Of a DNA stretch of 64,000 nucleotides, positions 12,479 to 28,788 are shown one piece after another. Position 1 is the first letter of the stretch; every line of letters starts with the position of its first letter. The DNA lies in NCBI RefSeq assembly GCF_057098645.1, contig NZ_CM169472.1; one strand, written 5' to 3'. Below the pieces are notes generated by a model. It searched no databases. It was not told the DNA's origin and was given only the letters and a program-made list of their open reading frames with translations. Both the position numbers and the translations under genes were made by a program.

Positions 12479-12756
12479 CGTTGATGGACTTTTTGTGCTG
12501 TTTACTACTGTTTATTTTTATTAATTCACTGAAATAAATAAGAAAAAACAATTTGTATTTCACTATAATTTTTTCCAGCTCCTTCCAGAGCGTTTTAAAG
12601 CTATCTGGCGCTGATATACAAAAAATGCACAGCCATTGTAAGGCTGCCGGAACAAATCCCCCCTGTTGCGTCTGCCAAAAATATTCACAAAATAAAGCGC
12701 TACCCGAAGCCGGACGGACTTATCCGGTGCTGTATGGACATTAACGAGGTAGCCCG

Positions 12757-13023: not shown

Positions 13024-13610
13024 TAGTGCCCGCTCTGCAAAAACTCCCTTTTTCTGGCTTGCCTTTTTCCGGCATTTGCGGATATAGTTTTTCCGCTGCC
13101 GCAAAATCGGCAGCCGGGCGTGAGAACCCGTGTAGCTCGAAGGCGACATATGACGCGCCATGCGTCTTTTTTTGTGTCGCAATCAACGCCACAGAGCGCC
13201 AGATTATGGTGTGGCGTGTGGTTTGCCGTGCAGGTATGATCCTGTTCGCAATCGCATGTTATGCCACTGAGTCAATGGTAGCTCAGGCGGGGCAGCCTCC
13301 GGGCTGGCCGGTATTCTTCGAGGCCGGTATTCTCACCCCCGTCTGGGCTATCGCCATCGAGCGTGAGAACTCCGGCGATAGCAGTTATTTGCTACTCGAA
13401 GGAGGCTGCCTTATGGCTACAACCCTTACCCCCTCACACCCTGAATTTGTCTTTGTGTTTGCGGCTGTCCGTCGCGCAGACCGTCATCCCCGTATCTGCA
13501 TGCTTCGCACCGTCGCCGGTGATGAACGCAGCGCCCGCCGTTCCCTTGTCCGTGACTATGTGCTCTCCCTTGCTGCCCGTCTGCCGGTGGTGGAGGTGTC
13601 CCGTGCGTAA
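13020..13610 (+). CDS. Hypothetical protein of the P4-like element
   Basis: 196-codon ORF whose ATG overlaps the vis-like stop (ATGA coupling); no recognisable motif. Confidence 0.35.
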
Positions 13611-13915
13611 TAAAAGCCCCTCAGACCGTCTCAGCGCGTCATGACGCCCGTGAACACCTCAGCATTGAGGCTTACCATAAGCTCAACCGCGCCAGCGCCG
13701 TATCCCGGTTTGTTGCAAAATGGCATCTGAATCGATCGCAGTTTGGCATTCGAATCGATCATGATTTGGCATCCATCTCCGATCACAGTTTGGCATCACA
13801 ATCGATCACGATTTGGCATGCTTCCGATCATTGATTGGCATCCTGCCAGTCACTCCGGGAATTAACTCTTTTCACCACAGTCTCCATTGCCGTGTTTAAA
13901 CCAGTGGAGACGTCA

Positions 13916-15481
13916 ATGTCCAGAAAGAGAAAATCCAGGAGCACTATGGAAACCTGTTTTAAGATCCTTCAGCTCAAGTTCGACAAGAAGCTGACTAACC
14001 GTTGTATCGGACTGACGTTACACATCAGCGCCTCAACCGTTTTTGAGGTTCTTGCCCGCTTCAAAGCCTCTTCTCTGTCATGGCCATTACCTGCTGATAT
14101 ATCCCATGACACGCTGGAGAAACTCATTTTTCCGCCCAAAGACACCTTTGCATCAGAGCTTGTAATGCCTGACATGTTGTACTTCGATACGGAAATGAGA
14201 AAACCAGGTGTGACGCGGCAACTGTTGTGGATGGAATACAAGGCACAGGCGGGTAACAAAGCGATGGGATACTCGCACTTCTGCCGTTGCTACCGGGAGT
14301 GGAAAAAAACGCGACGTCTCTCCATGCGCCAGGAGCATCGTGCCGGCGAAAAGCTTTTTATCGACTTCTGTGGTCCTACGGTTCCTGTTATTAATCCGGA
14401 CACCGGTGAGATACGCCGCGTGGCAATCTTCGTGGCCGTAATGGGGGCGTCCAACTATACCTACGTTGAAGCGTGCGAAGGTCAGGACATGATGTCATGG
14501 TTAAATGCCCACAGCCGTTGCCTGACCTTCCTGGGCGGCGTACCGAAGCTGCTCATCCCCGATAACCTCAGAAGCGCAGTGAAAAAGGCCGATCGATATG
14601 AGCCTGTCATCAACGACAGTTATCAGGCACTGGCTGAGCACTATGGCACGGTTATCATCCCGGCCCGACCACGCAAACCTAAAGATAAACCAAAAGCAGA
14701 AAACGGCGTCCTCATCGTTGAACGATGGCTTCTTGCCCGCATCCGTAATGAAACCTTCCACACGCTCAGGGCGCTGAATGCGCGCCTTAGGGAGTTACTG
14801 ACAGACATGAATAACCGGCCAATGAAGGGGTACGGCAATCAAACCCGTGCAGAACGCTTCCGCATACTGGATGCGCCAGCACTCTCTCCGCTGCCTCTGG
14901 CACCTTATGAATACACGGAATACAAAGCTGTGAAGGTTGGCCCTGACTACCACGTTGAATATGCCCGTCACTGGTACTCCGTTCCACACGAACTGGTCGG
15001 TCAGCGTCTGTCACTGAAGGCGGGGCAGTCGGTGGTACAGCTCTGGCACAAGGGGCAGTGTGTGGCGCAACATCCGCGCAGCACACATGAATATAAACAC
15101 ACAACCAATCCGCTTCACATGCCAGAGCGCCACCGGCAGCACGGGACATGGACACCGGAACGCCTGATCGAGCAGGGAAAACGTACGGGCCCGTCCACAG
15201 GCCGGGTGGTTGAATCCATGCTGAAGGCAAAACCCCATCCGGAACTGGCTTATCGTGCAGTTCTGGGGCTGCTGGCACTTCAGAAAAAATACGGCCCGGA
15301 ACGGCTGGAAAAGGCCTGTTACGTTGCCCTGCACTATAACGCCCCTGACAGACGCTTTATCGACAATCTGCTGCGTCACCATCGGGAGAACCTGGAGCTT
15401 CCATTATCCCGCCAGGGCGAACAACATCCGGCATATGCTTCAGAGCATGAAAACCTGCGTGGTCCGGGCTACTACCACTGA
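13916..15481 (+). CDS. istA: IS21-family transposase IstA
   Basis: MSRKRKSRSTMETCFKILQLKFDKKLTNRCIGLTLHISASTVFEVL... N-terminal HTH followed by a DDE integrase-like core; GGAG RBS. The ORF track extends to 13835, but the internal ATG is the better start. Confidence 0.8.
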   Translation: MSRKRKSRSTMETCFKILQLKFDKKLTNRCIGLTLHISASTVFEVLARFKASSLSWPLPADISHDTLEKLIFPPKDTFASELVMPDMLYFDTEMRKPGVTRQLLWMEYKAQAGNKAMGYSHFCRCYREWKKTRRLSMRQEHRAGEKLFIDFCGPTVPVINPDTGEIRRVAIFVAVMGASNYTYVEACEGQDMMSWLNAHSRCLTFLGGVPKLLIPDNLRSAVKKADRYEPVINDSYQALAEHYGTVIIPARPRKPKDKPKAENGVLIVERWLLARIRNETFHTLRALNARLRELLTDMNNRPMKGYGNQTRAERFRILDAPALSPLPLAPYEYTEYKAVKVGPDYHVEYARHWYSVPHELVGQRLSLKAGQSVVQLWHKGQCVAQHPRSTHEYKHTTNPLHMPERHRQHGTWTPERLIEQGKRTGPSTGRVVESMLKAKPHPELAYRAVLGLLALQKKYGPERLEKACYVALHYNAPDRRFIDNLLRHHRENLELPLSRQGEQHPAYASEHENLRGPGYYH

Positions 15482-15497
15482 CAGAAGGAACAACAGT

Positions 15498-16253
15498 ATG
15501 AGTGATAACCTGTTAAACAAACTGACCCAACTGAAACTCCCGGCGATGGCCGGGAGCCTGATACGGCAGCGGGAAACGCCTCAGACCTACGACGAACTGT
15601 CGTTCGAGGAAAGGCTGACGCTGCTGGTTGATGACGAGCTTCTGAGCAGGGAAAACAGCCGTGTGGCACGGTTGAGAAAAAATGCCGGCCTGAAATACCA
15701 GGCAACACCGGAAGGGCTGCGCTATCCGGCCTCAAGAGGTCTGCGGGCTGAACAGATGAGAGAACTGCTGAACGGCCACTACATAACCCACAGGAAAAAC
15801 CTGCTGATAACCGGTCCGACAGGATGTGGCAAGAGCTGGATAGCCAATGCGCTGGGCGAACAGGCATGTCGACAGAAACACAGCGTCCGGTACTGTAGAA
15901 CCGGGCGATTACTGGAACAACTGGCTCAGGGACGTGTTGATGGCAGCTGGCTGAAATATCTGAAACAGTTGCAAAAAATACAGGTTCTAATCCTGGACGA
16001 TCTGGGGCTGGAACAGTTAAGTAACGCCCAGTGTAATGACCTTCTGGAGCTCATAGAGGATCGTTACGGACAAAGCAGCACGATAGTGGTAAGCCAGTTC
16101 CCGGTAGATAAATGGCATGGTCTGATGGAGAACCCAACAACAGCAGATGCCATCCTGGACAGACTGGTACATAACTCACACCGAGTGGTCCTTCAGGGAG
16201 AGTCACTGAGGAAAAATCCCCCGGTAGTGGAAAGCAGCGAAAAAACGCGTTAA
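15498..16253 (+). CDS. istB: IS21-family helper ATPase IstB
   Basis: MSDNLLNKLTQLKLPAMAGSLIRQRE...; Walker A GPTGCGKS and Walker B ILDDLG. Confidence 0.85.
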   Translation: MSDNLLNKLTQLKLPAMAGSLIRQRETPQTYDELSFEERLTLLVDDELLSRENSRVARLRKNAGLKYQATPEGLRYPASRGLRAEQMRELLNGHYITHRKNLLITGPTGCGKSWIANALGEQACRQKHSVRYCRTGRLLEQLAQGRVDGSWLKYLKQLQKIQVLILDDLGLEQLSNAQCNDLLELIEDRYGQSSTIVVSQFPVDKWHGLMENPTTADAILDRLVHNSHRVVLQGESLRKNPPVVESSEKTR

Positions 16254-16525
16254 AAAGCGGTAGAAAAAGTTAAGTTCCCGGTTGATCGAATGGATGCGAA
16301 TCGCTGATCGGACTTCGATGCCAATCCGTGATCGAATAGAGCGGAATACGCAGTTTGTTGGGGGTGATTTGATTCACCGTGAACTCTCCGGCCTGCATCA
16401 GCTCTACATTCCGCATATTTTCAGTTACCTGAATGAAGATATTGATTTTGTGCTGAATGAACTGAAAGCCAAAGGCCTGTGCCGCGATTTTCTCGCCCAG
16501 CAGAAAGACCGGGGAGACAGGACGC

Positions 16526-16981
16526 ATGTTTGATTTTCCCCAGCCCGGTGAGATTTACCGTTCTGCCGGTTTTCCCGATGTGGCCGTGGTCGGCATTCTG
16601 GAAGACGGTATTCCGTGGGAAATGCCGTACCGCTGCCCGGACATTGTCTGGAACCCGTACCGCCGTAAATTCAGTATCCTTGTGCGTATCCTCGCTGACG
16701 GGCGCACCACAGACATCCCGCTGGGGCGTTTTCTGCGGGAATTTACCTGTGACCGTCCTGACCTGTTTAAACGCAGCCCCGTAAACCGGCATGCGGTACT
16801 GAAAGAAATGGCCGGAGACCCGGAATTACAGAAATGGCGGGAGAAATATCTGGATATTTACCCGCAGGACCCTGTTCCGGTCAGCCGGGCGGCACCGGTG
16901 GCGCGGGAATGGCGGGAAATTCCCCGCACGGAGCCTGACCCGGAAATCACCCCGGATAACAGTTACCGCAATTATCTGTAA
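16526..16981 (+). CDS. Conserved hypothetical protein of P4-like elements (151 aa), upstream of alpha
   Basis: ORF MFDFPQPGEIYRSAGFPDVAVVGILEDGIPWEMPYRCPDIVWNPYRR...; ATG overlaps the stop of a short upstream frame (ATGTTTGA). Confidence 0.5.
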   Translation: MFDFPQPGEIYRSAGFPDVAVVGILEDGIPWEMPYRCPDIVWNPYRRKFSILVRILADGRTTDIPLGRFLREFTCDRPDLFKRSPVNRHAVLKEMAGDPELQKWREKYLDIYPQDPVPVSRAAPVAREWREIPRTEPDPEITPDNSYRNYL

Positions 16982-17116
16982 TTAAAAAACGACACCCGAA
17001 AAATTAAATGTGCGTATTCGCGCAGGGATACGCACGTCTTCAGGAGACGCAGATATGCCTTATCAGTTAATGCAACCGGCACGGAATGCAGTCATCTGTC
17101 ACAGGGAGGAAAACAA

Positions 17117-17437
17117 ATGAAAACACCCTTACCGCCCGTCTTACGCGCTGCCCTTTACCGTCGCGCTGTCGCCTGTGCCTGGCTGACCGTGTGCGAACGT
17201 CAGCACCGCTACCCGCATCTCACCCTTGAGTCACTGGAAGCGGCCATCGCCGCTGAGCTGGAAGGCTTTTATCTGCGCCAGCACGGTGAGGAAAAAGGGC
17301 GTCAGATAGCCTGTGCCCTGCTGGAAGATTTAATGGAATCCGGCCCCCTGAAGGCCGCGCCGTCGCTGTCCTTTCTCGGGCTGGTTGTGATGGATGAACT
17401 CTGTGCCCGTCACATAAAAGCGCCGGTACTGCACTGA
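17117..17437 (+). CDS. Small hypothetical protein of the P4-like element (106 aa)
   Basis: ORF between the 151-aa ORF and alpha; GGAGG RBS. Confidence 0.45.
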
Positions 17438-17451
17438 AGGAGAACAACACC

Positions 17452-19785
17452 ATGAAAATGAACGTAACCGCCACCGTCAGCCATGCGCTCGGCCACTGGC
17501 CGCGTATTCTCCCGGCGCTGGGGATTCAGGTGCTGAAAAACCGTCATCAGCCCTGTCCGGTCTGTGGCGGGAGTGACCGCTTCCGTTTTGATGACAGGGA
17601 GGGGCGCGGCACCTGGTACTGCAATCAGTGTGGTGCCGGTGACGGCCTGAAACTGGTTGAAAAGGTGTTTGGTGTCTCCCCGTCCGACGCGGCCGCAAAG
17701 GTGGCTGCCGTGACCGGCAGCCTGCCCCCGGCTGACCCGGCAGTGACGGCTGCCGCCGGTGCTGAAACAGACGCTGCCCGGAAGAACGCCGCCGCACTGG
17801 CACAAACCCTGATGGCGAAAACCCGTCCCGGAACCGGTAACGCCTACCTGACCCGCAAGGGCTTTCCCGGCCGGGAATGCCGGATGCTGACCGGCACACA
17901 CAGATCCGGTGGCGTGAGCTGGCGTGCCGGTGACCTTGTGGTGCCACTGTATGACGACAGCGGCGAACTGGTTAACCTTCAGTTAATCAGTGCTGACGGC
18001 CGTAAGCGCACCCTGAAAGGCGGACAGGTCAGGGGCACCTGTCACACCCTTGAAGGACAGAATCAGGCCGGAAAACGTCTGTGGATAGCGGAGGGATACG
18101 CGACCGCACTTACCGTACATCACCTGACCGGTGAAACGGTGATGGTGGCGCTTTCTTCCGTGAACCTCCTTTCTCTGGCCAGCCTTGCCCGGCAGAAGCA
18201 TCCGGCCTGTCAGATTGTCCTTGCCGCAGACCGTGACCTCAGCGGTGACGGCCAGAAAAAAGCCGCCGCAGCCGCAGATGCGTGTGAGGGCGTTGTTGCC
18301 CTGCCGCCGGTCTTCGGTGACTGGAATGATGCCTTCACGCAGTACGGCGGGGAGGCCACCCGTAAGGCCATTTACGATGCCATCCGGCCACCGGCTGAAA
18401 GCCCGTTCGACACCATGAGCGAAGCAGAGTTTTCCGCCATGAGTACCAGCGAAAAGGCCATGCGTATCTATGAGCATTACGGCGAGGCGCTCGCGGTTGA
18501 TGCCAACGGCCAGCTTCTGTCCCGTTATGAAAATGGTGTCTGGAAGGTGCTGCCGCCACAGGACTTTGCCCGGGATGTGGCCGGGCTGTTTCAGCGTCTG
18601 CGCGCGCCGTTCTCCTCCGGGAAGGTGGCCTCCGTGGTGGACACCCTGAAGCTGATTATTCCGCAGCAGGAAGCCCCCTCCCGCCGCCTGATTGGCTTTC
18701 GTAACGGCGTGCTCGACACGCAGAACGGCACGTTCCACCCGCACAGTCCGTCACACTGGATGCGCACCCTGTGCGATGTGGATTTCACCCCGCCGGTGGA
18801 CGGTGAAACGCTGGAGACCCACGCCCCCGCGTTCTGGCGCTGGCTTGACCGTGCCGCCGGTGGCCGTGCGGAAAAACGCGACGTGATTCTGGCCGCACTG
18901 TTTATGGTGCTGGCAAACCGCTATGACTGGCAGCTCTTTCTGGAGGTGACCGGTCCCGGCGGCAGCGGCAAAAGTATCATGGCCGAAATAGCCACCCTGC
19001 TGGCCGGTGAGGATAACGCCACGTCGGCCACTATTGAGACGCTGGAATCCCCGCGTGAACGTGCCGCGTTAACTGGCTTCTCACTGATACGCCTGCCGGA
19101 CCAGGAAAAATGGAGCGGCGACGGTGCCGGACTCAAGGCCATCACCGGCGGCGATGCGGTGTCCGTGGACCCGAAATACCGGGATGCGTACTCCACGCAT
19201 ATCCCGGCGGTGATTCTGGCCGTGAACAATAACCCGATGCGCTTCACCGACCGCAGCGGCGGCGTGTCACGCCGGCGGGTGATTATTCACTTCCCGGAAC
19301 AGATAGCCCCGCAGGAGCGCGACCCGCAACTTAAGGACAAAATCACCCGCGAGCTGGCGGTCATCGTGCGTCACCTGATGCAGAAGTTCAGCGACCCGAT
19401 GCTCGCCCGGTCACTGCTTCAGTCCCAGCAGAACTCAGACGAGGCACTGAACATCAAACGGGATGCCGACCCGACGTTTGATTTTATCGGCTATCTGGAA
19501 ACCCTGCCGCAGACCAGCGGCATGTATATGGGGAACGCCAGTATCATCCCGCGTAATTACCGTAAATACCTCTATCACGCCTATCTGGCCTACATGGAGG
19601 CAAACGGCTACCGGAATGTACTCAGTCTGAAAATGTTCGGGCTGGGGCTGCCGGTGATGCTGAAGGAATACGGGCTGAATTACGAGAAGCGCCATACCAA
19701 ACAGGGGATACAGACCAACCTGACGCTGAAAGAGGAAAGCTACGGCGACTGGCTGCCAAAATGTGACGACCCTGCAACAACCTGA
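17452..19785 (+). CDS. alpha: P4 alpha-like primase-helicase
   Basis: 777-aa ORF; N-terminal zinc-binding primase region (CPVCGGSDRFRFDD..WYCNQCG), central P-loop GPGGSGKS; same length as P4 alpha. Confidence 0.85.
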   Translation: MKMNVTATVSHALGHWPRILPALGIQVLKNRHQPCPVCGGSDRFRFDDREGRGTWYCNQCGAGDGLKLVEKVFGVSPSDAAAKVAAVTGSLPPADPAVTAAAGAETDAARKNAAALAQTLMAKTRPGTGNAYLTRKGFPGRECRMLTGTHRSGGVSWRAGDLVVPLYDDSGELVNLQLISADGRKRTLKGGQVRGTCHTLEGQNQAGKRLWIAEGYATALTVHHLTGETVMVALSSVNLLSLASLARQKHPACQIVLAADRDLSGDGQKKAAAAADACEGVVALPPVFGDWNDAFTQYGGEATRKAIYDAIRPPAESPFDTMSEAEFSAMSTSEKAMRIYEHYGEALAVDANGQLLSRYENGVWKVLPPQDFARDVAGLFQRLRAPFSSGKVASVVDTLKLIIPQQEAPSRRLIGFRNGVLDTQNGTFHPHSPSHWMRTLCDVDFTPPVDGETLETHAPAFWRWLDRAAGGRAEKRDVILAALFMVLANRYDWQLFLEVTGPGGSGKSIMAEIATLLAGEDNATSATIETLESPRERAALTGFSLIRLPDQEKWSGDGAGLKAITGGDAVSVDPKYRDAYSTHIPAVILAVNNNPMRFTDRSGGVSRRRVIIHFPEQIAPQERDPQLKDKITRELAVIVRHLMQKFSDPMLARSLLQSQQNSDEALNIKRDADPTFDFIGYLETLPQTSGMYMGNASIIPRNYRKYLYHAYLAYMEANGYRNVLSLKMFGLGLPVMLKEYGLNYEKRHTKQGIQTNLTLKEESYGDWLPKCDDPATT

Positions 19786-19792
19786 CCCACCT

Positions 19793-19817
19793 GACCGGCA
19801 TCTGCCGGTCTTTTTTT
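19793..19817 (+). terminator. Intrinsic terminator downstream of alpha
   Basis: gaccggc-atct-gccggtc hairpin followed by TTTTTTT. Confidence 0.7.
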
Positions 19818-19830
19818 ATCCCGACATCCC

Positions 19831-20125
19831 CCGAAGGTGAACAATCCACTGTTCACCCTTCACCGTATATTCACCCGTTATCACACTGAAATTAAAAGAG
19901 AAAAACGAAAGGTGAACAGTGTGAACAATCAAATCAAAAAAAACTTTTTTCTCCCTGCGTGATTTTCAGTGCAGGGGACTAATCGCCGGTATGAGTCACA
20001 CCGGCAGAATACCGGAGGTGAAGAATCGAATGTTCACCCTTCACCCATTATTCACCACCTATCATACTGAAATAAAAGGAGAAAAAAGAAAGGTGAACAG
20101 TGTGAACAGTTCTTTCGAAAAAAAA
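19831..20125. repeat. crr-like region: two direct repeats of about 110 bp, each with TGTTCACC/GGTGAACA octamers
   Basis: Near-identical units at about 19831-19945 and 20015-20125 (..ggtgaa..aatgttcacccttcacc..tcatactgaaataaaaggagaaaaa..aaaggtgaacagtgtgaaca..). Confidence 0.6.
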
Positions 20126-20321
20126 TTTTTTATGTGGATAAAAGATGCACTGGTTTGGATCCGAGCTACGGATCCAAACTTACTGATTAAAAATGATTTA
20201 ACTTTCCGATTTATTGATGGGCTGAAAATAGATTGGTCAGAAAAACAGTGGGGGCACAAAAGGGGGCATATTTCATTGTTGTGTTTTATTATTTGTTTTT
20301 TATCATTAACTTATTTTGATG

Positions 20322-20343
20322 TTTGAGTCCGGCCTTCGCACCA
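20322..20343 (+). repeat. attR: partial duplicate of the leuX 3' end
   Basis: tttgagtccggccttcgcacca versus leuX ttcgagtccggccttcggcacca. Confidence 0.7.
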
Positions 20344-21020
20344 CACCGTATGCAAATCGAGTCGCTCAAGGGCGGCTTTTTTTGTGTCTGAAATCACCCA
20401 TATCCGTGCAGTATATAGGCCTGCCAGAAAAGCAGTTCAGTATTCTTCATTTTGTAGTCGATGGTCCCAAGTTTGCTCTGGCTGGAAGCTGCATCGTCCA
20501 CATTACGTGGGCAGGGTGGTTTCGCTATGCTACTTGAACGTTTTGACCATGTGGCTCAGGTAGCTAATATCAAAAGACGTCATTTTGTCTCCACGCCCAC
20601 CTTGGTGAACATTCAATAAATAGTTTCGGTCGAGAGCAGTTATGTAGGGCTAGCAGACGAGATGCGCAGACATCTTGTTGAAGACAATTATACTGACCAC
20701 CTGAGAACGCTATTCTACCGAATAATATTTATTATCTTGGCGAATAATGATGATTACCTGTGTAACTATGGTTTTATGCTGATGGGACCGGCAGTACAAT
20801 TTCTGTAGTGTACTCGCAATTTCAGATCTCTGGCGTTTATTCTGGTGCAAAGGAGGTATGTGATGAAAACTTTGCTACCATGCCATTAAATGCGACCAAT
20901 ATCGGATTATCCATCAGTTGCTTGTCGTAGATTTCATTGGTTATAAAAATGCAAGGTGTAAAAGATGAAATTTATAATTATTAGTTAAGTGGCTAGTTTT
21001 ATAGTAATTTAGACAATAGG

Positions 21021-23069
21021 ATGTATGGAAAAATGGAAAAAGTTTATGATACCACTAGAATTAGTAATCTTGCTAACGACCCGAAACAGTTTTGTTCTTT
21101 TTTTTGTGAGTACATAAAAAGAGATGATATTAGTATAGATATCGCCTTGGATGTGCTGAGAATATCTTCCATCTATTATAATAGATTTTCAGTTCAGACT
21201 GAAGTTGAGTATAACAATACATTCAAAAAATGTATTAATGAGCTAGTAAACTCATTTCCTGATAACATTGAACTAATTTCTGAGTTCGAGAGTCAATGTA
21301 AAATTATGCATGATATAAATAATTCTTTCTTTGCGGCTACAAAATGTGCTGGTATTTGGCGTGAAAATACAAAAAAATCACATGCATTAATACTTAATCT
21401 CATCATGTTTTGTGAGATGTTTTTATCATCATTATCATCCTTGGTTGTGGTCAATGATCCTAAAAAAATGAAGAGGATTTTTCCATTATTTATCGTTTCT
21501 GAAAATATTAATATTCATGCTGAACCTGATATCGAATATTTTCGAGTTATCGATAGGGCATTTGATGAGGTAGCCAATTACACCGGAAGAATATTTTCTT
21601 ATTTACGGACTCATGAGCCATTGAAACTAACTTCTTGTGTGAATAAACAAACCTTGCTTTCAATGGGAGGGTACCTTAATGAGTGGAATGTTTTTGACTC
21701 ATTAAGCAGAGTAAGAGACTTTTTCAGACTAAGTAGTGCAGTATTTACAAAATTGGATAATAACATTTACTCTCTTGAGGTTGATAGTTTTTGTTTATAC
21801 CGAGATTATGAGATTGCAAGAAATAGACTAATGATGAGAGCGTCACATCTATATAGCGAAGTTCATGAATTTAGTAACAAACATTTTCATCTAAATAGTT
21901 GGGTAAAGGATCATATGCCATCTTACTTAAATTCTGATGGCGTTTTTAGCTCATTTCATCTAAGCGAGTTGGAAAATATGTCTCCTGATGACCTTCATGA
22001 AGAATATGGGAATATATCATTATTTAATTGGGTGCACGCTTATCAATGTTTAGTCGAGTTATCTAAAGAAGAAATGAGCAAAAGATTTTCATCGACAAAA
22101 CCTATACCCCTACAGTTGGATCGCTGGCTGATCATAAAAAGCCGTGAGAGTTGGTTATCATTCTTTCAACGTAAGGGGATTGCAGCAGATGCAGCAAAAA
22201 AACTGATAGATTATTTTACCTTCAATTCAAAATCACATGATCTTAATGATTGCCCATTTATTCCCTGTATGGACGGTTTATGCTTAATGCCTGCATTCAT
22301 AGCAAATAGCTCAGTGACTCGCTCTCTAATGTCATTATTTGGTTCCAAAAAAATTTCTCAAGCAAGTAAAGGGCGATTTCATGAGCAACAATTTATAAAA
22401 CAAGTTCGTGATGCGGGGATTAAAGCTTCTCCAATTGATGCTCATGCTAATTATCAGTGCGATTGCGTGATTCTCCTGGATGATTGTTTGATTTTTACAG
22501 AACTAAAATCAAATGGTCAACCAATATATTATGGTAAGTACTATCAGCAAGTGTGTAACATCGTTGGAGATAGCTCATTAATACATGATCATAATAATAA
22601 ATTTATGCGTTCTTATTTTCAACAAATAAATCGAACTTCTGAACATTATCTTAATCATCTTGATGTGATCATTAAAGAATTCGAACTACCATCAACATGG
22701 CAACCCAAAGGTGTGTATAAGCTTATTGTTACTACAACTATGCTCGGTGGGAAATATCATGTGGATGATACATATGTAGCGGACAAATATGCATTATCTA
22801 GTTTTTTTCAACGAATACCTGGAGTGATATATCAAACAAATGAAAATGGAGAAATGGCGAAAAATATCATTGATGGGTTTGAGTGTTGCGAAGGGGAAAT
22901 CACTATCGATAAGTTTATAGATTATCTTTCCTCTTTGCCCGGTATTAATGCTGTACGTAAAAATATACAAAAATTAACTTATAGTGTTCGATTTAATGAA
23001 AAACTAGTCCATCACCCTTATTATGATTCTTGGGCTTTTGGCCCATATATTCGTAAGGGAAATGATTAG
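21021..23069 (+). CDS. Hypothetical 682-aa protein with a possible PD-(D/E)xK nuclease-like motif; orphan accessory gene
   Basis: Long AT-rich ORF; no housekeeping similarity recognised; QCDCVILLDDCLIFTELK segment resembles a PD-(D/E)xK core; strong terminator immediately downstream. Confidence 0.5.
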   Translation: MYGKMEKVYDTTRISNLANDPKQFCSFFCEYIKRDDISIDIALDVLRISSIYYNRFSVQTEVEYNNTFKKCINELVNSFPDNIELISEFESQCKIMHDINNSFFAATKCAGIWRENTKKSHALILNLIMFCEMFLSSLSSLVVVNDPKKMKRIFPLFIVSENINIHAEPDIEYFRVIDRAFDEVANYTGRIFSYLRTHEPLKLTSCVNKQTLLSMGGYLNEWNVFDSLSRVRDFFRLSSAVFTKLDNNIYSLEVDSFCLYRDYEIARNRLMMRASHLYSEVHEFSNKHFHLNSWVKDHMPSYLNSDGVFSSFHLSELENMSPDDLHEEYGNISLFNWVHAYQCLVELSKEEMSKRFSSTKPIPLQLDRWLIIKSRESWLSFFQRKGIAADAAKKLIDYFTFNSKSHDLNDCPFIPCMDGLCLMPAFIANSSVTRSLMSLFGSKKISQASKGRFHEQQFIKQVRDAGIKASPIDAHANYQCDCVILLDDCLIFTELKSNGQPIYYGKYYQQVCNIVGDSSLIHDHNNKFMRSYFQQINRTSEHYLNHLDVIIKEFELPSTWQPKGVYKLIVTTTMLGGKYHVDDTYVADKYALSSFFQRIPGVIYQTNENGEMAKNIIDGFECCEGEITIDKFIDYLSSLPGINAVRKNIQKLTYSVRFNEKLVHHPYYDSWAFGPYIRKGND

Positions 23070-23092
23070 AGCAATTTATTATATAGTCCATG

Positions 23093-23134
23093 TTATTCAC
23101 TGATTATATTATTGATAATATAATCAGTGAATAA
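23093..23134. terminator. Long perfect hairpin between the 682-aa gene and downstream minus-strand ORFs
   Basis: ttattcactgattatatta-ttga-taatataatcagtgaataa followed by a T7 run. Confidence 0.65.
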
Positions 23135-23691
23135 CTCTAATTTTTTTAATGTTGGGGGGTAGCCTGAAATTGAAATTGGTACTACGGAACGGTATGATCA
23201 TATCGCATCAAAATATCAAGGTAGTGATGATTTTCTACGCAACGATCCAGAAACGTGGATTTTATCATCACCATAAGCAATGGCAGCGACAACACCATCA
23301 ATTTCTATATCAAAGGTGGTGAAATGAATTAGAAAATTGTTTATTTAATCCATTAGCGATAAGTTTTATTGTTATTTAGCCGAGATATATTCCATTGAAA
23401 AAAGTAAATTGGCACTGATATTATATCAAATGGGAATAATCCTTTTGTAAATAAGCTGAGGAATGTGTTAATTCACATCCAGCGCCTTATAAACCGCATC
23501 AACCGGTTCTGAGTAAAAACTTACCTGAAACTTGGTAAACAACTCTGCCGGAACTGTTGGAATATCCATAGCCGAGGATATCGGCAACAGAACACGTTTT
23601 GCGCCGCTATCGAAGGCGAGTTGTAAACTAGCGGCAAGATCCTGCACTGATTATGTCAGCAATATTGAACATACTGCGATAGTTATCAACC

Positions 23692-24564
23692 TCACCCCCT
23701 AAAAACCTCTTTCCGATGCCACTCTACAAACACCTCATAAGGGTAATTTTTACGCACCTGCGGCAACGTAATAGTTTTCCCGTCAAAATCCCAGAATAAT
23801 CTCTCAACGATCCCTCCGCCGTTTACCGCATCTGATACCAGTACCCGCATATTTTCGTCCAGGCCAATCGATCCTTTATCAAAGGCTTTATGGTGAATTG
23901 CGCAAAGCGCCAGGCCATTAGGAATTTCACAAGGACCGCCGTGCTGTTTCCATTTTATATGCGCCGCTTCCAGCGCGACGGTGGTGTCGTCGTGGCGCAT
24001 ATTAAAGCCACATATCGCGCACTGGTAGTTATAAGCGCGTAATACATTTTTGCGAAATAACGGGTCGCGCTGTTTACGGATTTGCTGGAGATCAAAACCC
24101 AGCTCGTCAGCGATTTCTTCCTGAATACTCTCGGTGAAGTGCGCTTCGAGTATCTGTTGCGCCAGAGTATTGATGAGTTTTTTATTGCCGATTACCAGGG
24201 CGTAGTGCTGTTCATCGAAACCGCCTGCAACGTGGTATTCGTTCAGTTCCTTCACTGGCGGTTGTCGGCTGCTCCCTGCTGTTGAGCAACGCTCGGCATT
24301 GTGTAATTGCCAGAATCCGTCGCCTTGTAATCGCCAGAACGGCATATCAGGTCGGTACTGTGAACGCTGTGGCCCAAAACGTTCCAGTAAACTGTGCAGA
24401 GGTTCGTAGATTTCCGATCCATAATCGAAAAGGCGCGGATGTCCATTCAGGTATCCCGCTAATACGTATAGCAGTAACAATGGTTTATGCGGCGCGCGCT
24501 GTTCACCCTTGTGCCAAATTTTTATGTTGGCAATTGCCTGCTGTAGCGATTTACTGGAAGCCAT
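23692..24564 (-). CDS. HNH endonuclease-domain protein with an N-terminal domain of unknown function
   Basis: C-terminal HNH motif YNYQCAICGF...ALEAAHIKWKQHGGPCEIPNGLALCAIHHKAFD; start chosen at MASSKSLQQ (ATG 24562-24564). The ORF track allows an N-terminal extension to 24720 that overlaps the nanM-derived fragment. Confidence 0.7.
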   Translation of the reverse strand: MASSKSLQQAIANIKIWHKGEQRAPHKPLLLLYVLAGYLNGHPRLFDYGSEIYEPLHSLLERFGPQRSQYRPDMPFWRLQGDGFWQLHNAERCSTAGSSRQPPVKELNEYHVAGGFDEQHYALVIGNKKLINTLAQQILEAHFTESIQEEIADELGFDLQQIRKQRDPLFRKNVLRAYNYQCAICGFNMRHDDTTVALEAAHIKWKQHGGPCEIPNGLALCAIHHKAFDKGSIGLDENMRVLVSDAVNGGGIVERLFWDFDGKTITLPQVRKNYPYEVFVEWHRKEVFRG

Positions 24565-24641
24565 TGATATCCCAGGCAGTGAAATAATTGCAATCATGCT
24601 CGCAAATTTTCTGCTGTTCAAGCCTGCAAGTGAAGATCCAT

Positions 24642-24914
24642 TGCTGTGTTGAGGGATCAAAAGACAACAAAAACTTATTGAAGAAATAATCTTCTGCTTT
24701 TTTGTCGAAATAATAGGCATTGATCTTGTCTATAGCTGCTAAATATTCTCCAGCCTCGTTGAGATCTTCAAAATAGCCATTGAAGATGTTCTGGTTAACA
24801 CCGCCAGTAACATAAGCCTTGCCGCTGTGTACAAAAGTCACATTACCCGCCATGCCCATCGGCGCGTGCGACATCAATTTATTGTTTTATTCATTGTGAC
24901 TGTCTCCTGTCTAC
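24642..24914 (-). pseudogene. Rearranged nanM fragment (internal codons fused to the nanM 5' leader)
   Basis: About 240 bp nearly identical to nanM 57959-58200 (MSHAPMGMAG..FDPSTQQW) joined directly to about 30 bp matching the nanM RBS/leader region 58541-58573; lacks the first about 148 codons and the 3' part. Confidence 0.7.
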
Positions 24915-25103
24915 AAAGCTTTAACCTTCACCCGTATGAGGGAAGTTTTAAGTATGAGGCGAACCATAGCATATGCCTTTATACCTATTACACCATAAAG
25001 ATAGACAAGTTATGCCATAAACTACTTTTGTAATTTGAGTCACAAATCAGGGAAGTTTTATTTATCTTCCGTGAAAGTCTTAACTTTCACGGAGTGTTAG
25101 AAT

Positions 25104-26207
25104 TTACAAAGTTGCTGGCGTAAAGGCTCCGGTTTGTATTTCTTTAACCAGCTCACCCACGGTATATATTCTCCATCCTTCGACTTCGGCGGGAGTAAGG
25201 TTAACTGCAATTTTAAGGCCTGGCCATGCAGCTTCTACGGTTGCAATAATTTCATGTTCTGAGTTTTGAAGATCTAACCCAGGAACAGGAGGTTGAAAGC
25301 CTTTATGTTGCATCATATTAATATCACCATGCACTGATGGATCAGTCAGGTCATATATTTCATTCCAGGATTCTGCTTTTAATAACCCTTGTTGGGAACG
25401 TAAACGTTGAATGATAGCCATCTCAGCTTGGGTAACGAATATACCTTCGTGGAGGGGCTGTTTTCGATGGCAATCCTTGCACAGAACAAGAAGGTTTTCA
25501 TGGTGATTATCATATTTGATGCCATTTTTATGATGGACATGGCACAAGTTTTTGGCGGTTGATAAATTCACGCCACAATCATTACAAACATAATTGGCCT
25601 TTTCTCGTATTTCTTTAGATATTTCCTTCCAGTTTTCAACATACCCACTATTTGTTTTGTCATAGATACCCTTAGGCATATGACGAAAACAGGTACTATA
25701 ATCTGAAAAAAACTCATTTAATGAGAATGATTTAAAAATCTCTCTTTTTCGTTGTTTATCAATACTTCCTTTATAATTAAGTCGTTCGAGGCAATTCATA
25801 CATACCCGTAAATCAACATCCTGGCTCCGACCTGAACCATCATCAATTTCGAATAAACCATCTATGCGGTTAGTTGCATGATACCTTTCAAATCGATTTT
25901 TATGGCGCATTTCATCAAGAGTTCTGCACCAGGCAATATGAAAACGTTTTCCTTTTTCGCCATCTACGATAGCCGCATCATAACGCCCTGAATGGTCCCG
26001 AATATATAAAAGAACCTGGCGGCCATGATAAGAGATAAGCCCGCTACCAGGGTCAAGATCTTCGATACTAACTTCTTTACCCGTGGATAACTCAATATCT
26101 ATAGGATCAAAGTCAATAGGGGATTCATCCAGAAAAAAATCGACTCCTTCTGGTAACATTTTCTTCCCTAATTGAATAAGTTCTGAAAGGTCGATAGATA
26201 ATTTCAT
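25104..26207 (-). CDS. zorE: ZorE-like HNH endonuclease (Zorya type II)
   Basis: 367-aa ORF with HNH motif CNDCGVNLSTAKNLCHVHHKNG..NLLVLCKDCH; third gene of a MotA-like/MotB-like/HNH operon. Confidence 0.65.
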   Translation of the reverse strand: MKLSIDLSELIQLGKKMLPEGVDFFLDESPIDFDPIDIELSTGKEVSIEDLDPGSGLISYHGRQVLLYIRDHSGRYDAAIVDGEKGKRFHIAWCRTLDEMRHKNRFERYHATNRIDGLFEIDDGSGRSQDVDLRVCMNCLERLNYKGSIDKQRKREIFKSFSLNEFFSDYSTCFRHMPKGIYDKTNSGYVENWKEISKEIREKANYVCNDCGVNLSTAKNLCHVHHKNGIKYDNHHENLLVLCKDCHRKQPLHEGIFVTQAEMAIIQRLRSQQGLLKAESWNEIYDLTDPSVHGDINMMQHKGFQPPVPGLDLQNSEHEIIATVEAAWPGLKIAVNLTPAEVEGWRIYTVGELVKEIQTGAFTPATL

Positions 26208-26210
26208 CTC

Positions 26211-26918
26211 TTACTCCTGAATAATCTTTCTAATCTGCAACTCGGCATTTGTTACAACTTTGAAGGTGACACGACGAGAGCGATTAGGATCCTCCTTGCC
26301 GGTTTTATCAAGAATGGGATGTGCAGATGAATAACCTACTGCGGCAAATTTACTTTTAACCCATTGTTGGTGTGTCGCGATATTTTTTATGTCATAAACG
26401 TATTGTAATACTGCACGTGTACGACCTTGCGATAGTGCCATATTATTAAAATAAGCAATATCAGGATTCGTTGTTCCTGTCCAGTCAGTACTTGTGTGAC
26501 CTTCAATGCGGACTTCAGTAATATGTTCCTGATAATTATCTAGAACTTTTAGGTAGCGAGGAAAGAAATCGTCAAGAATGAGTTTAAACTTTGGTTTTAG
26601 CTCTGTGCTTCCTAAGCCAAATAAAACATCCGGTGATTTAAATCGAACCTCCAGAGTCTGTTTATCGATCTCTGCATCCCAGTCTTGTAAATCCTTTGCA
26701 AACTCAATATCCAGAGCATTATAAAGCTGTAACTGAGCATTCTCGTAGGCTACGGCAACTTCTTTAATTTTTTCTTTTTCAATACGTACGTAGTGCATAT
26801 AAGCAATAGATATGAACATAAAAACCATCATCAGCCCTGCCATTAGGTCTGACATGGATACCCAATGTTCATTATCTTGATCTTTTTTAGGTAATTGTTT
26901 CCCTATAATCTTATCCAT
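26211..26918 (-). CDS. zorB: ZorB-like MotB/OmpA-family protein (Zorya)
   Basis: 235 aa; N-terminal single TM helix with a preceding Asp (SMSDLMAGLMMVFMFISIAY); C-terminal OmpA-like peptidoglycan-binding region. Confidence 0.7.
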   Translation of the reverse strand: MDKIIGKQLPKKDQDNEHWVSMSDLMAGLMMVFMFISIAYMHYVRIEKEKIKEVAVAYENAQLQLYNALDIEFAKDLQDWDAEIDKQTLEVRFKSPDVLFGLGSTELKPKFKLILDDFFPRYLKVLDNYQEHITEVRIEGHTSTDWTGTTNPDIAYFNNMALSQGRTRAVLQYVYDIKNIATHQQWVKSKFAAVGYSSAHPILDKTGKEDPNRSRRVTFKVVTNAELQIRKIIQE

Positions 26919-26924
26919 GATCGA

Positions 26925-28577
26925 TTACCCGCGATGTTTATTAGCAGAAATTAATGCTTGTAACTGCCCCATAACTATTTGGTAATCTTTAATAAGTTTT
27001 TCATAGTTACCGACAAAACCTTTGCTGATTGAAAGCAGAGCATTACCTAATGATTGCATTTCACGGTTCATTTCACGTTCAGTTGCTTGCTCAAAAGCAT
27101 GTAACTGCTCGTTGATGGATAGAGCAAATTTTTCAATTGATTCTCTGACTTGAGAAGTCAGCCCTGCACTTGCCTTATCAAATGATGTCTGGATTGAATC
27201 AAACATATTATCGGCATTACTGGATAGTTGATGGTTAATCTTTTCACCAGTCTTACTGAACATATCAATCACATTCGTCGTATTTTGTTCCATATTTCTA
27301 TGCAATTCTTTCGAGTGCGACTCTAGTGATTTCAGGAATTCTTCACCACTTTGTTTCATTTCAGTAATTGTTTCACCTAACGTGCTGGTTAGGGTTTCGG
27401 AGGAATTGCTGACATCATGTGCCATCGAGGCAAATGCTTGTTGTGTTTGGGTAACCGATTGTCTGAATCCTTCGGTACCTTCATCCAGGGCAACGCGCAT
27501 TGAATCTGCATTAAGAAGTATTTGCTGGCTGGTTTGCTCAAGAGATGCACTAACATTTGCAGCTCCGGATTTCAGCAGTTCACCCACTTCAGCCATTTTG
27601 TTCTGTATTTCAGGTAATACGGTTGTAGCTTTATCGCGGATGGCGACAAAGGTTTCTAAATGGCGGGAGAGTTCGCTGATTTGATGTTGGTTCACCTGAA
27701 GCACTTCACGCAGTTCAGACATAGCCAGAGGAATTTCTTTACATTCTTCCCAAATCCCTGCAACCGCAGTTTTTGTTTCAACCAGGGACTCGACACTTTG
27801 TTGATATTGTTCTGACATCTGCTCAATTTGCGTTTTATAATTTCCCTGCCACTCAACAAGTTTTTTTACAGAGGCATCAAGAGCTTTAAAGTTTTCACCA
27901 AACTGTTCAGTTAAATTTTGATTAAAATCAATAATGACTTGTCGCAAAGCATCAATAATTTGTTCTGTAGCACCTTTTGCCATTAGATCTGCAAATTGTT
28001 CAAGTTGTTCCCAAAGCTTATTACTGAAATGAGTGTGATTAGCTAATTGTGCCTGCGAGGAATCGCTAATATCAGTACGTAGTAATTTTATTTGAGCAAT
28101 AAGAGAACCTTCACTATCACCGTTAATACCCGAGACTAATTTAGTCAGAGTCTGGTTCTGCTCTTTTAATTCATGATAGATATGTTCAGGTGTAACAGAT
28201 TCAGGGTTATTTTCTGCTAACGCACTTCGTTTATTGGCAAAAAAGAAAGCATCCATTCCATTAAATAAAATGGCAAAAAACATACCTACAATGCTTGTAA
28301 TGAATGCTGTTTTTAGGCCACCTAATAATACGGGGATGCTGGTATCAATACTTTCGGTATTAAAATTGAGTAAACCAATAATAATACCAATGAAAGTACC
28401 CAGAATACCTAATGCCCCCATTAAGGTTGGAGCATATTCTCTAAACTTACTATGTATATTTTTTTTGTCACACCACCACGCTGATAAAAATACGAATATA
28501 ACAGCCCAGATGAAAATATTGGTGATCAGTGTAGAGTCTATCGATTGAAACAACTGCTCAAAAAGCTGCGCTAACAT
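26925..28577 (-). CDS. zorA: ZorA-like MotA/ExbB-family membrane protein with long coiled-coil tail (Zorya)
   Basis: N-terminal TM helices (..LMGALGILGTFIGIIIGL.., ..LKTAFITSIVGMFFAILF..) followed by about 400 aa of Q/E-rich predicted coiled coil. Start chosen at MLAQLFEQ (ATG 28575-28577); the ORF track allows 28634. Confidence 0.7.
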   Translation of the reverse strand: MLAQLFEQLFQSIDSTLITNIFIWAVIFVFLSAWWCDKKNIHSKFREYAPTLMGALGILGTFIGIIIGLLNFNTESIDTSIPVLLGGLKTAFITSIVGMFFAILFNGMDAFFFANKRSALAENNPESVTPEHIYHELKEQNQTLTKLVSGINGDSEGSLIAQIKLLRTDISDSSQAQLANHTHFSNKLWEQLEQFADLMAKGATEQIIDALRQVIIDFNQNLTEQFGENFKALDASVKKLVEWQGNYKTQIEQMSEQYQQSVESLVETKTAVAGIWEECKEIPLAMSELREVLQVNQHQISELSRHLETFVAIRDKATTVLPEIQNKMAEVGELLKSGAANVSASLEQTSQQILLNADSMRVALDEGTEGFRQSVTQTQQAFASMAHDVSNSSETLTSTLGETITEMKQSGEEFLKSLESHSKELHRNMEQNTTNVIDMFSKTGEKINHQLSSNADNMFDSIQTSFDKASAGLTSQVRESIEKFALSINEQLHAFEQATEREMNREMQSLGNALLSISKGFVGNYEKLIKDYQIVMGQLQALISANKHRG

Positions 28578-28788
28578 TTTGATACCTGTGTAAATAATGG
28601 ATAGTTGTAATCGTTTAAAAAATAAACAAAACACACATAATTTATATGGTTAAGTTCGGTGTAGCGCTCATGATTGTAACAAGTTTTTTCGAGATATAAA
28701 TGATTTGTCTCATTTTTAGCGAGTTCATCGGGTTGAGCTTTTTTATGATGATAGTAACCTGTTACGAATTGTATCAAAGGAAGGCAGG

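What the first reader, a model, noticed from the sequence alone, without database searches (positions are those of the whole stretch)
21021..23069. Orphan 682-aa AT-rich protein with a PD-(D/E)xK-like motif
This large ORF has no similarity to anything I recognise. It carries a D-x12-ELK segment (QCDCVILLDDCLIFTELK) compatible with a restriction-endonuclease-like fold, and is followed by a 19-bp perfect hairpin terminator. It sits between attR and an HNH nuclease gene, so it is a candidate stand-alone defence nuclease or part of an unnamed two-gene system.
Basis: inference. Interest (0 to 1): 0.6.

Follow-up and report, generated by a model that had tools for sequence, protein, structure and literature searches.

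The report
Stand-alone NERD nuclease, likely phage defence
The gene is real and intact, but it is not an orphan: it belongs to a widespread, uncharacterised family of ~650-690-aa proteins with a restriction-endonuclease-like (NERD) nuclease domain, it sits in a variable defence slot of the E. coli leuX island, and it most likely works alone as an anti-phage nuclease, not with the neighbouring HNH gene.

Summary
The ORF (21021-23069, +) exists. Its likely start is 21033, giving 678 aa, the same as RefSeq WP_000416999.1 ('hypothetical protein'). Its GC content is 32-34%, against about 51% in the flanks.

"Orphan" is wrong. A profile search found 363 clusters of homologues at 50% identity, mostly full length, in Proteobacteria, Firmicutes and Planctomycetes. 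UniProt names them 'NERD domain-containing protein'.

The downstream hairpin is real (20-bp stem, -24.4 kcal/mol).

The HNH neighbour is a self-sufficient type IV, phosphorothioate-dependent enzyme. It is transcribed convergently, it occurs in five times as many E. coli genomes as the ORF, and it is absent next to every distant homologue examined. The two-gene idea is therefore not supported.

About half of the distant homologues examined lie beside known defence systems (type I R-M, Gabija, Cap4, pPIWI-RE, ABC-3C), and McrBC occupies the same slot in another E. coli strain.

Best reading: an unvalidated single-gene defence nuclease. Its activity, substrate and trigger are untested.

The parts
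21033..23069 (+). Coding sequence of the 678-aa NERD-domain protein (RefSeq WP_000416999.1). The longest ORF starts 12 nt upstream, at 21021 (682 aa).
   Evidence: ORF list and translation. RefSeq start, from the annotated twin locus L001. Homologues align from the second ATG.
21033..22097 (+). N-terminal all-alpha domain, aa 1-355, with one beta-hairpin at aa 237-249. Proposed sensor or regulatory domain; no family assignment.
22116..22352 (+). Small alpha/beta module, aa 362-440, with a winged-helix-like order of elements (my reading). It carries the nearly invariant D403-x2-D406-x-P408 motif.
   Evidence: Secondary-structure elements E367-369, H371-380, H385-395, E409-412 and E415-418. D403 99%, D406 96% and P408 100% conserved in 113 sequences. 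The winged-helix reading is inference from element order, not a tested match.
22365..22832 (+). PD-(D/E)xK / NERD nuclease core, aa 445-600: alpha1 (G447, E451), beta1, beta2 (D477), beta3 (E490-L-K492), alpha (Q531, R534), beta4, D584.
22455..22508 (+).
   Evidence: Translation. D477, E490 and K492 are invariant in 113 homologues.
22830..23030 (+). C-terminal alpha/beta domain, aa ~600-666, with a conserved G621-x-I-T-x2-K627 motif. Possibly S4-like; unassigned.
   Evidence: AF2 elements E598-602, E608-612, H625-634, H636-642, E645-654, E657-666. A profile of this domain finds ribosomal protein uS4c as its best PDB sequence hit, but only at E=0.04. No Pfam match.
23092..23147 (+). Terminator-like perfect hairpin: 20-bp AT-rich stem with 4 G-C pairs and a 4-nt loop. 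A T7 run begins 5 nt after the stem.
   Evidence: Terminator scan. RNA fold -24.4 kcal/mol, z = -8.4.
21098..21105 (+). T8 homopolymer at codons ~22-25. In ST95-like strains (APEC O18, N17) it is T7, which frameshifts the gene.
   Evidence: Pairwise alignments of the window ORF with L002 and L021.

Best explanation
The gene encodes a single-polypeptide, Mg2+-dependent PD-(D/E)xK nuclease of the NERD type. It is horizontally acquired and most likely works on its own as an anti-phage or anti-mobile-element effector.

Proposed working (inferred, not shown):
- The large all-alpha N-terminal domain (aa 1-355) and the small module carrying the invariant D403/D406/P408 motif keep the nuclease inactive, or give it specificity, until an infection cue is met.
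- The core (E451, D477, E490, K492, Q531) then cuts nucleic acid.
- The C-terminal alpha/beta domain helps bind the substrate.
- DNA is the default expectation for this fold. RNA is not excluded, because one characterised NERD defence protein (ZwsA) is reported to be an RNase.

Shown here: the fold, the conserved catalytic-type residues, the family's breadth, the lack of a conserved partner gene, and the association with defence islands. Inferred: the catalytic activity itself, the substrate, the trigger, and the defence phenotype.
For: Nuclease fold and motif:
- The AF2 model with a 113-sequence alignment has pLDDT 93.4 and pTM 0.92, and shows the alpha-beta-beta-beta-alpha-beta order around the motif.
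- P408, G447, D477, E490 and K492 are invariant. D403, D406, E451, Q531 and D584 are at least 90% conserved across 113 homologues, most of them 13-24% identical to the E. coli protein.
- Family members match Pfam NERD (11 at E<=1e-3, 26 at E<=0.1), Card1_endonuc (7) and Mrr_cat (4).
- Homologues in AFDB50 superpose over their full length (TM 0.67-0.97) and are named NERD domain-containing protein.

Stand-alone:
- The neighbourhoods of diverged homologues share no gene with one another.

Defence context:
- P0093: type I R-M plus a Cap4 nuclease.
- P0094: Tn7-like cargo with GajA/GajB-like genes.
- P0100: the end of a Bacillus prophage, next to a pPIWI-RE gene.
- P0124: type I R-M, Mrr_cat and ABC-3C-type genes.
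- P0205: CTD10 and DUF2326 genes.
- In E. coli S40 the same slot upstream of the SBD-HNH gene holds McrB/McrC instead.

Accessory, foreign gene:
- GC is 32-34%.
- It is present in only 334-359 of 5426 complete E. coli genomes.

Precedent:
- Single-gene PD-(D/E)xK defence systems are a known class: 8 of the 13 PD-(D/E)xK systems in DefenseFinder are single genes (PMC13099982).
Against: - No experiment on any family member was found. A search for the accession in the paper library returned nothing.
- No known defence model matches. PADLOC gives only a weak local hit over the motif (PDC-M29B, E=0.0011), or CARF_PDDEXK nuclease-part hits on homologues.
- Several homologue contexts are not defence islands. 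In Izhakiella the gene lies between siderophore and sugar-metabolism genes. The Xenorhabdus context is mostly metabolic and transport genes. The plasmid contexts are uninformative.
- The context sample is small, about 12 lineages, and no background rate was computed.
- Many E. coli copies are broken. Frameshifts at five different sites and one internal stop were seen, and about 8 of 28 sampled copies differ in length by 1 nt. The gene is therefore often dispensable. Some of these may be sequencing errors.
- No phage genome in the collection carries the gene.
- The N-terminal domain has no recognisable sensor fold.
Confidence: 0.58

Rival explanations
1. The ORF and the downstream HNH gene form a two-gene defence system.
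For: In E. coli the two genes are nearly always adjacent: 330 genomes carry at least 80% of the 5-kb block, against 334 with the ORF. Both encode nuclease domains.
Against: - The genes are convergent. They are separated by about 620 bp containing a strong hairpin and a pseudogene fragment.
- The HNH protein is a full match to NF045808, the PT-DNA-binding restriction endonuclease (437.8 bits against a cut-off of 180).
- From general knowledge of the ScoMcrA/SprMcrA-type SBD-HNH enzymes, that class acts alone.
- The HNH gene occurs in 1706 E. coli genomes, so more than 1300 carry it without the ORF.
- None of the diverged homologues examined has an SBD-HNH neighbour.
- The E. coli adjacency is one block at 98-99% identity, so it counts as a single observation.
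Confidence: 0.04
2. It is an RNA-targeting defence nuclease of the ZwsA (Zowangsin) type. ZwsA is a stand-alone multi-domain NERD protein that cleaves ssRNA-phage genomes or phage transcripts, aided by an S4-like C-terminal RNA-binding domain. This is a sub-variant of the best explanation that differs in substrate.
For: - ZwsA is a 716-aa stand-alone NERD protein with a helical N-terminus and a C-terminal S4 domain. Its catalytic residues are E535, D567, E580 and K582, with the same D-x12-ExK spacing as here. It is reported to cleave PP7 and MS2 RNA (bioRxiv 10.64898/2026.04.06.716636).
- The order of domains here is similar.
- The best PDB sequence hit of the C-terminal-domain profile is ribosomal protein uS4c, at E=0.04.
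Against: - The S4 signal is marginal, and Pfam gives nothing.
- ZwsA's geometry (K582 of 716, with 134 residues after it) lies outside the range of 113 family members, where the lysine sits at 386-515 and 159-228 residues follow it.
- No member matches the Pfam VHS, DUF647 or S4 families.
- The closest structural matches are DNA nucleases.
Confidence: 0.15
3. It is a nuclease-domain protein with a non-defence role. Examples would be a mobile-element maintenance or addiction factor, a DNA repair or recombination accessory, or a decaying selfish gene with no current function in E. coli.
For: - Some homologues sit among housekeeping genes or next to IS elements, integrases or TA genes.
- Inactivation is frequent and independent in E. 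coli.
- NERD domains also occur in non-defence proteins (general knowledge).
Against: - The long ORF and the catalytic residues are conserved across phyla at 13-24% identity. That argues for a selected enzymatic function.
- About half of the contexts examined contain bona fide defence systems, and McrBC replaces the gene at the same site.
- Patchy presence and frequent loss are typical of defence genes.
Confidence: 0.2

Closest known systems
NERD domain (Pfam PF08378) proteins within the PD-(D/E)xK superfamily
   Same: - The core motifs match: G-x3-E helix, D at the start of beta2, ExK in beta3, and Q in the following helix.
- Family members hit the NERD HMM.
- UniProt labels the orthologues NERD domain-containing.
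   Different: - The E. coli protein itself does not reach the Pfam NERD model, even at E<=10.
- The nuclease domain is embedded in a 678-aa architecture, with a 355-aa helical N-terminal domain and extra modules that the Pfam family does not describe.
Upx, a single-protein PD-(D/E)xK anti-phage system (PDB 9wuf; PMC13099982)
   Same: - It is also a single-gene system, with its catalytic PD-(D/E)xK domain in the C-terminal part, buttressed by other domains.
   Different: - Upx is 1212 aa and has two nuclease domains. It acts as a 3'-5' ssDNA exonuclease.
- There is no sequence-level relation: the family profile does not find 9wuf at E<=10.
ZwsA / Zowangsin of Pseudomonas aeruginosa (bioRxiv 10.64898/2026.04.06.716636)
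   Same: - It is a stand-alone multi-domain NERD defence effector found in genomic islands.
- It has the same E...D-x12-ExK signature, a helical N-terminus and an extra C-terminal domain.
   Different: - It is reported as an RNA endonuclease specific for ssRNA phages.
- Its catalytic lysine is at 582 of 716, outside this family's range.
Can2/Card1 and Shedu (SduA) nuclease domains
   Same: - There are weak sequence-profile matches over the catalytic motif.
   Different: - This protein has no CARF or SAVED sensor and no DUF4263 match.
- The N-terminal region here is all-alpha.
- PADLOC finds no Shedu or CARF system model for the E. coli protein.

Membership tests
PD-(D/E)xK (restriction-endonuclease-like) superfamily | alpha-beta-beta-beta-alpha-beta core fold | tested here: met
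   [not shown]
PD-(D/E)xK (restriction-endonuclease-like) superfamily | Conserved acidic residue on beta2 and (D/E)xK on beta3 | tested here: met
   D477, E490 and K492 are invariant in 113 homologues.
PD-(D/E)xK (restriction-endonuclease-like) superfamily | Metal-dependent phosphodiester cleavage | not testable with these tools
   This needs purified protein and nuclease assays.
NERD domain (PF08378) | Significant match to the family HMM | tested here: inconclusive
   The query itself has no NERD hit at E<=10. Of 113 homologues, 11 hit at E<=1e-3 and 26 at E<=0.1, with a best value of 1e-5. Orthologues are labelled NERD in UniProt.
Two-gene system with the SBD-HNH neighbour | Co-occurrence of both genes across diverged lineages | tested here: not met
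   No SBD-HNH gene lies next to any diverged homologue examined. The HNH gene is in 1706 E. coli genomes, against 334 for the ORF.
Two-gene system with the SBD-HNH neighbour | Operon-like arrangement | tested here: not met
   The genes are convergent. The gap of about 620 bp contains a hairpin terminator and a pseudogene fragment.
Upx | Sequence homology, and a dual-nuclease architecture of about 1200 aa | tested here: not met
   [not shown]
ZwsA (Zowangsin) | Sequence homology to ZwsA | not testable with these tools
   No ZwsA sequence or accession is given in the preprint or its supplement. None of the 239 retrieved proteins has E535, D567, E580 and K582.
ZwsA (Zowangsin) | C-terminal S4 RNA-binding domain | tested here: inconclusive
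   The C-terminal profile A4 finds uS4c as its best PDB hit at E=0.04, but the individual stretches are not significant. There is no Pfam S4 hit.
Known or candidate defence systems in PADLOC-DB v2.0.0 | Match to a system protein model | tested here: not met
   The only hit is PDC-M29B at E=0.0011, over aa 466-515, which is the catalytic motif region. Homologues hit only the nuclease part of CARF_PDDEXK models.
CARF-nuclease effectors (Can2/Card1) | N-terminal CARF (Rossmann-like) cyclic-oligoadenylate sensor | tested here: not met
   The N-terminal 355 residues are predicted all-helical. Similarity to Can2 and Card1 is confined to the nuclease domain.

The most novel reading that the evidence does not exclude
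The family is a widespread single-gene immune system that has not yet been validated. It would be a helical sensor fused to a NERD nuclease and an S4-like nucleic-acid-binding tail. It could be related to ZwsA and could target RNA (ssRNA phages or phage transcripts) rather than DNA. That would extend a defence type just described in Pseudomonas to Enterobacteria and Firmicutes.
Probability: 0.15. Interest if true: 0.6.

Novelty: new variant of a known kind. Interest (0 to 1): 0.42.

Why it matters
If confirmed, this would add a broadly distributed single-gene nuclease system to the defence catalogue. The family spans Proteobacteria, Firmicutes and Planctomycetes. PADLOC-DB v2.0.0 (2023) does not recognise it.

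[quoted passage not shown] That matters for predicting phage host range, for example in phage therapy of APEC, ExPEC and STEC lineages.

The kind of system is already familiar: a stand-alone PD-(D/E)xK defence nuclease with an accessory sensor domain. The conceptual gain is therefore moderate unless the substrate or the trigger proves unusual.

Tried and rejected
- Direct family scans of the protein gave nothing meaningful. Pfam, NCBIfam and PHROGs returned only a chance-level PHB-depolymerase hit.
- A first AF2 run with a 7-sequence alignment gave a poor model (pLDDT 56). I discarded it and used the 113-sequence run instead.
- Foldseek against the PDB found nothing significant for the whole chain (best E 0.35), although its weak hits were again PD-(D/E)xK nucleases.
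I therefore could not compute a systematic neighbourhood census or defence score, and sampled contexts one protein at a time.
- Re-searching the word-indexed protein database with the 113-sequence profile returned only the same close relatives.
- I tried to obtain the ZwsA sequence from the preprint and its supplement, and failed.
- I considered phase variation at the T8 tract and rejected it. The frameshifts in different strains lie at five different sites, only two of them in long homopolymers.
- Rfam found no RNA family in 19800-25100.
- No phage record encodes a homologue.
- I rejected a CARF-type sensor, because the N-terminus is all-alpha.
Full report
**Observation**

The window carries an ORF at 21021-23069 on the + strand (682 aa). 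RefSeq annotates the identical gene in a near-identical genome from the ATG 12 nt downstream (window 21033). That gives 678 aa, WP_000416999.1, 'hypothetical protein'. Diverged homologues all align from this second Met (M-K-x-YD), so 21033 is the likelier start. I use 678-aa numbering below.

The gene is strongly AT-rich. GC is 0.316 and 0.341 in the two 1-kb bins it fills, against about 0.50-0.62 in the P4-like satellite just upstream.

The hairpin after the stop codon is real. It lies at 23092-23135, with a perfect 20-bp stem and a 4-nt loop, and a T7 run begins 5 nt after the stem. As RNA it folds at -24.4 kcal/mol, z = -8.4, and none of 200 shuffles folds as well.

**Genomic setting**

The window is an E. 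coli chromosome at the leuX tRNA-Leu(CAA) gene (5923-6007). The features, in order:

- A P4-like satellite is integrated there. It has an integrase (6160-7446), psu, delta, a sid-like gene and a primase-helicase (17452-19785).
- A degenerate repeat of the tRNA 3' end (attR) lies at about 20321-20344. A terminator-like site follows at 20359-20378.
- The ORF therefore lies outside the satellite, about 690 bp beyond attR.
- Downstream, on the opposite strand, is the 'HNH gene' (23692-24720).
- After it come a nanM fragment, Zorya II (25104-28634), Druantia III (28789-38462) and an intact four-gene ARMADA II (38686-54909). This is the layout described for O-island 172 (bioRxiv 10.1101/2025.09.22.677730).

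**Not an orphan**

- The word-indexed search found only Enterobacterales relatives: E. coli, Salmonella at 75% identity, and Izhakiella, Xenorhabdus, Pectobacterium and Pantoea at 40-55%.
- A profile of these, run against 1.84 billion representative proteins, found 363 clusters at E<=1e-3 (183 at 1e-10, 47 at 1e-30). Most are 600-700 aa and aligned end to end.
- Foldseek of the model against AFDB50 found 360 matches at E<=1e-3. Full-length superpositions had TM 0.67-0.97.
- Those matches came from Bacillus, Paenibacillus, Listeria, Enterococcus, Streptococcus, Agrobacterium, Legionella, Paracidovorax and a planctomycete. Almost all of the listed matches are named 'NERD domain-containing protein'.
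- Five Firmicute or Fusobacterium plasmids carry homologues. No phage record does.

**The nuclease domain**

In an alignment of 113 full-length homologues, most only 13-24% identical to the E. coli protein, five columns are invariant: P408, G447, D477, E490 and K492. Five more are at least 90% conserved: D403, D406, E451, Q531 and D584.

With this alignment AlphaFold2 gives a confident model (pLDDT 93.4, pTM 0.92). A first run with only 7 sequences had failed (pLDDT 56). The model places the conserved residues as follows:

| Residues | Element |
|---|---|
| G447, E451 | helix 445-460 |
| D477 | start of strand 476-482 |
| E490, K492 | end of strand 485-492 |
| Q531, R534 | helix 528-540 |

A further strand follows at 560-567. 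This is the canonical PD-(D/E)xK order.

At sequence level:

- The family profile aligns with the Can2 nuclease motif at E=0.042.
- Members hit Pfam NERD (11 at E<=1e-3, 26 at E<=0.1), Card1_endonuc and Mrr_cat.
- The E. coli protein itself misses all of these models.

**The other domains**

- Residues 1-355 are all-alpha apart from one hairpin. They match only generic helical repeats.
- Residues 362-440 form a small alpha/beta module. The order of its elements looks winged-helix-like, which is my reading and not a tested match. It carries the D403-x2-D406-x-P408 motif, whose role is unexplained.
- Residues ~600-666 form an alpha/beta domain with a conserved G-x-I-T-x2-K motif. A profile of this domain alone finds ribosomal protein uS4c as its best PDB sequence hit, but only at E=0.04. 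Pfam finds nothing. S4-likeness is a lead, not a result.

**Alone or with the HNH gene?**

Four lines of evidence argue against a pair:

- The neighbour is a full-length match to NCBIfam NF045808, 'phosphorothioated DNA-binding restriction endonuclease' (437.8 bits against a cut-off of 180). That is a type IV enzyme class known to act alone (established knowledge of SBD-HNH enzymes such as ScoMcrA).
- It is convergent with the ORF. The hairpin and a pseudogene fragment lie between them.
- It occurs at 80% coverage or more in 1706 of 5426 complete E. coli genomes, while the ORF occurs in 334. Most genomes with the HNH gene therefore lack the ORF.
- The adjacency seen in E. coli is a single block at 98-99% identity, so it is one observation, not many.

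The neighbourhoods of diverged homologues share no gene with one another:

| Homologue | Neighbourhood |
|---|---|
| Izhakiella | siderophore and sugar-metabolism genes |
| Xenorhabdus | KptA-like gene and a metallo-beta-lactamase-fold gene |
| Pectobacterium | integrase and Vsr |
| P0093 | type I R-M and a Cap4 nuclease |
| P0100 (Bacillus) | after a prophage lysis cassette, before a pPIWI-RE gene |
| P0092 | HigBA-like pair |
| P0094 | Tn7-like cargo with GajA/GajB-like genes, SLFN_AlbA_2 and WYL |
| P0124 | type I R-M, Mrr_cat and ABC-3C-type genes |
| P0205 | CTD10 and DUF2326 genes |
| two Bacillales plasmids | IS elements or unannotated genes |

The gene is thus a single-gene unit. About half of the sampled contexts contain recognised defence systems.

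In E. coli S40 the slot immediately upstream of the SBD-HNH gene holds McrB/McrC and a type I R-M system instead of this gene. That is the pattern of a variable defence slot.

**State of the gene in E. coli**

It is present in about 6% of complete genomes, at 99% identity or more. Many copies are broken:

- Of 28 near-full-length hits sampled evenly down the ranking, 8 differ in length by one nucleotide.
- Five that I aligned carry frameshifts at five different sites: +G at 21069; T8 to T7 at 21098-21105 in APEC O18 and N17; 21720; T7 to T8 at 22801; and 22968.
- A further strain has an internal stop.
- RefSeq flags these as pseudogenes or annotates a truncated restart.

The scatter of sites argues against phase variation at one tract. 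It suggests repeated loss, which fits a costly or intermittently useful accessory gene. Some cases may be sequencing errors. The copy in the window is intact.

**Comparison with known systems**

Single-gene PD-(D/E)xK defence systems are a known kind. According to PMC13099982, 8 of the 13 PD-(D/E)xK systems in DefenseFinder are single genes.

- Upx is the best structural match. It is 1212 aa, has two nuclease domains, and has no detectable sequence relation.
- ZwsA (Zowangsin) of P. aeruginosa is the closest in concept. It is a 716-aa stand-alone NERD protein with a helical N-terminus and a C-terminal S4 domain. It is reported to cleave ssRNA-phage genomes, with catalytic residues E535, D567, E580 and K582.
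None of the 239 retrieved proteins fits those positions. Its geometry also lies outside that of 113 family members. Membership is therefore untested and somewhat unlikely.
- PADLOC-DB v2.0.0 has no model for the family.
- A search for the RefSeq accession in the paper library found nothing.

**Verdict**

The nuclease call is right. The two-gene idea is wrong.

The best-supported reading is an uncharacterised, widely distributed, stand-alone NERD-type nuclease that serves in anti-phage or anti-mobile-element defence. Confidence in the nuclease fold is above 0.9; confidence in the defence role is about 0.6. The N-terminal helical domain is the presumed sensor or regulator. Substrate and trigger are unknown.

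It is a new variant of a known kind and of moderate interest. It is a reasonable candidate for a plaque-assay test, but not a conceptual surprise.

Noticed in passing
window 6160-19785, with attR at ~20321-20344: A P4-like satellite is integrated at leuX (tRNA-Leu CAA, 5923-6007). It has an integrase, psu, ogr/delta, a sid-like gene and an alpha primase-helicase. attR is a degenerate copy of the tRNA 3' end, with one base missing.
   Followed up: partly
window 7912-10021: The int-psu hotspot of the satellite carries a type II restriction-modification pair. The REase is at 7912-8730 (PADLOC REase_II, E=5.5e-198) and the Dcm-type C5 methyltransferase is at 8768-10021. The twin genome L001 and APEC O18 carry different cargo at the same spot (two hypothetical proteins, and a KwaB-like gene, respectively).
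   Followed up: partly
window 13835-16253: An IS21-family element is inserted inside the P4-like satellite. Its transposase is at 13835-15481 (NF033546, E=1e-84), followed by a second ORF at 15255-16253. The element is absent from the otherwise collinear satellite in L001.
   Followed up: no
window 23692-24720 (-): The neighbouring 'HNH gene' is a phosphorothioate-DNA-dependent type IV restriction enzyme (NF045808, 437.8 bits). The model matches aa 57-340 of the 342-aa ORF. RefSeq starts the gene later, giving 290 aa. It is present in 1706 of 5426 complete E. coli genomes.
   Followed up: partly
window 21021-23069, compared with L002, L017-L021 and L028: E. coli copies of the NERD gene carry independent inactivating mutations at at least six different sites: five frameshifts and one internal stop. 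About 8 of 28 sampled copies differ in length by 1 nt. This could be repeated gene loss, or partly sequencing error.
   Followed up: partly
L027 (E. coli S40) 2577-5938, against window 21033-23069: In strain S40 the position directly upstream of the SBD-HNH gene is occupied by McrB/McrC family genes and a type I R-M system instead of the NERD gene. The site behaves as a swappable defence slot.
   Followed up: partly
window 24550-24880: This is a short internal fragment of nanM (N-acetylneuraminate epimerase). In APEC O18 and S40 the intact nanM and nanC genes and a truncated nanS follow the SBD-HNH gene. [quoted passage not shown]
   Followed up: no
window 38686-54909: The four large ORFs (952, 1636, 2113 and 704 aa) match the ArmA-D layout of ARMADA II described for OI-172. 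They are intact here, whereas the first gene is fragmented into pseudogenes in the near-identical genome L001.
   Followed up: no
protein aa 403-408 (window ~22239-22256): The motif D-x2-D-x-P (D403, D406, P408) is 96-100% conserved across 113 homologues. It lies outside the canonical nuclease core, just before a beta-hairpin. Its role (extra metal ligand, ligand site or domain interface) is unexplained.
   Followed up: no
window 20345-21032: About 690 bp of AT-rich sequence between attR and the gene has no annotated gene and no Rfam match. It contains only weak promoter-like sites, so the gene's promoter is not identified.
   Followed up: partly
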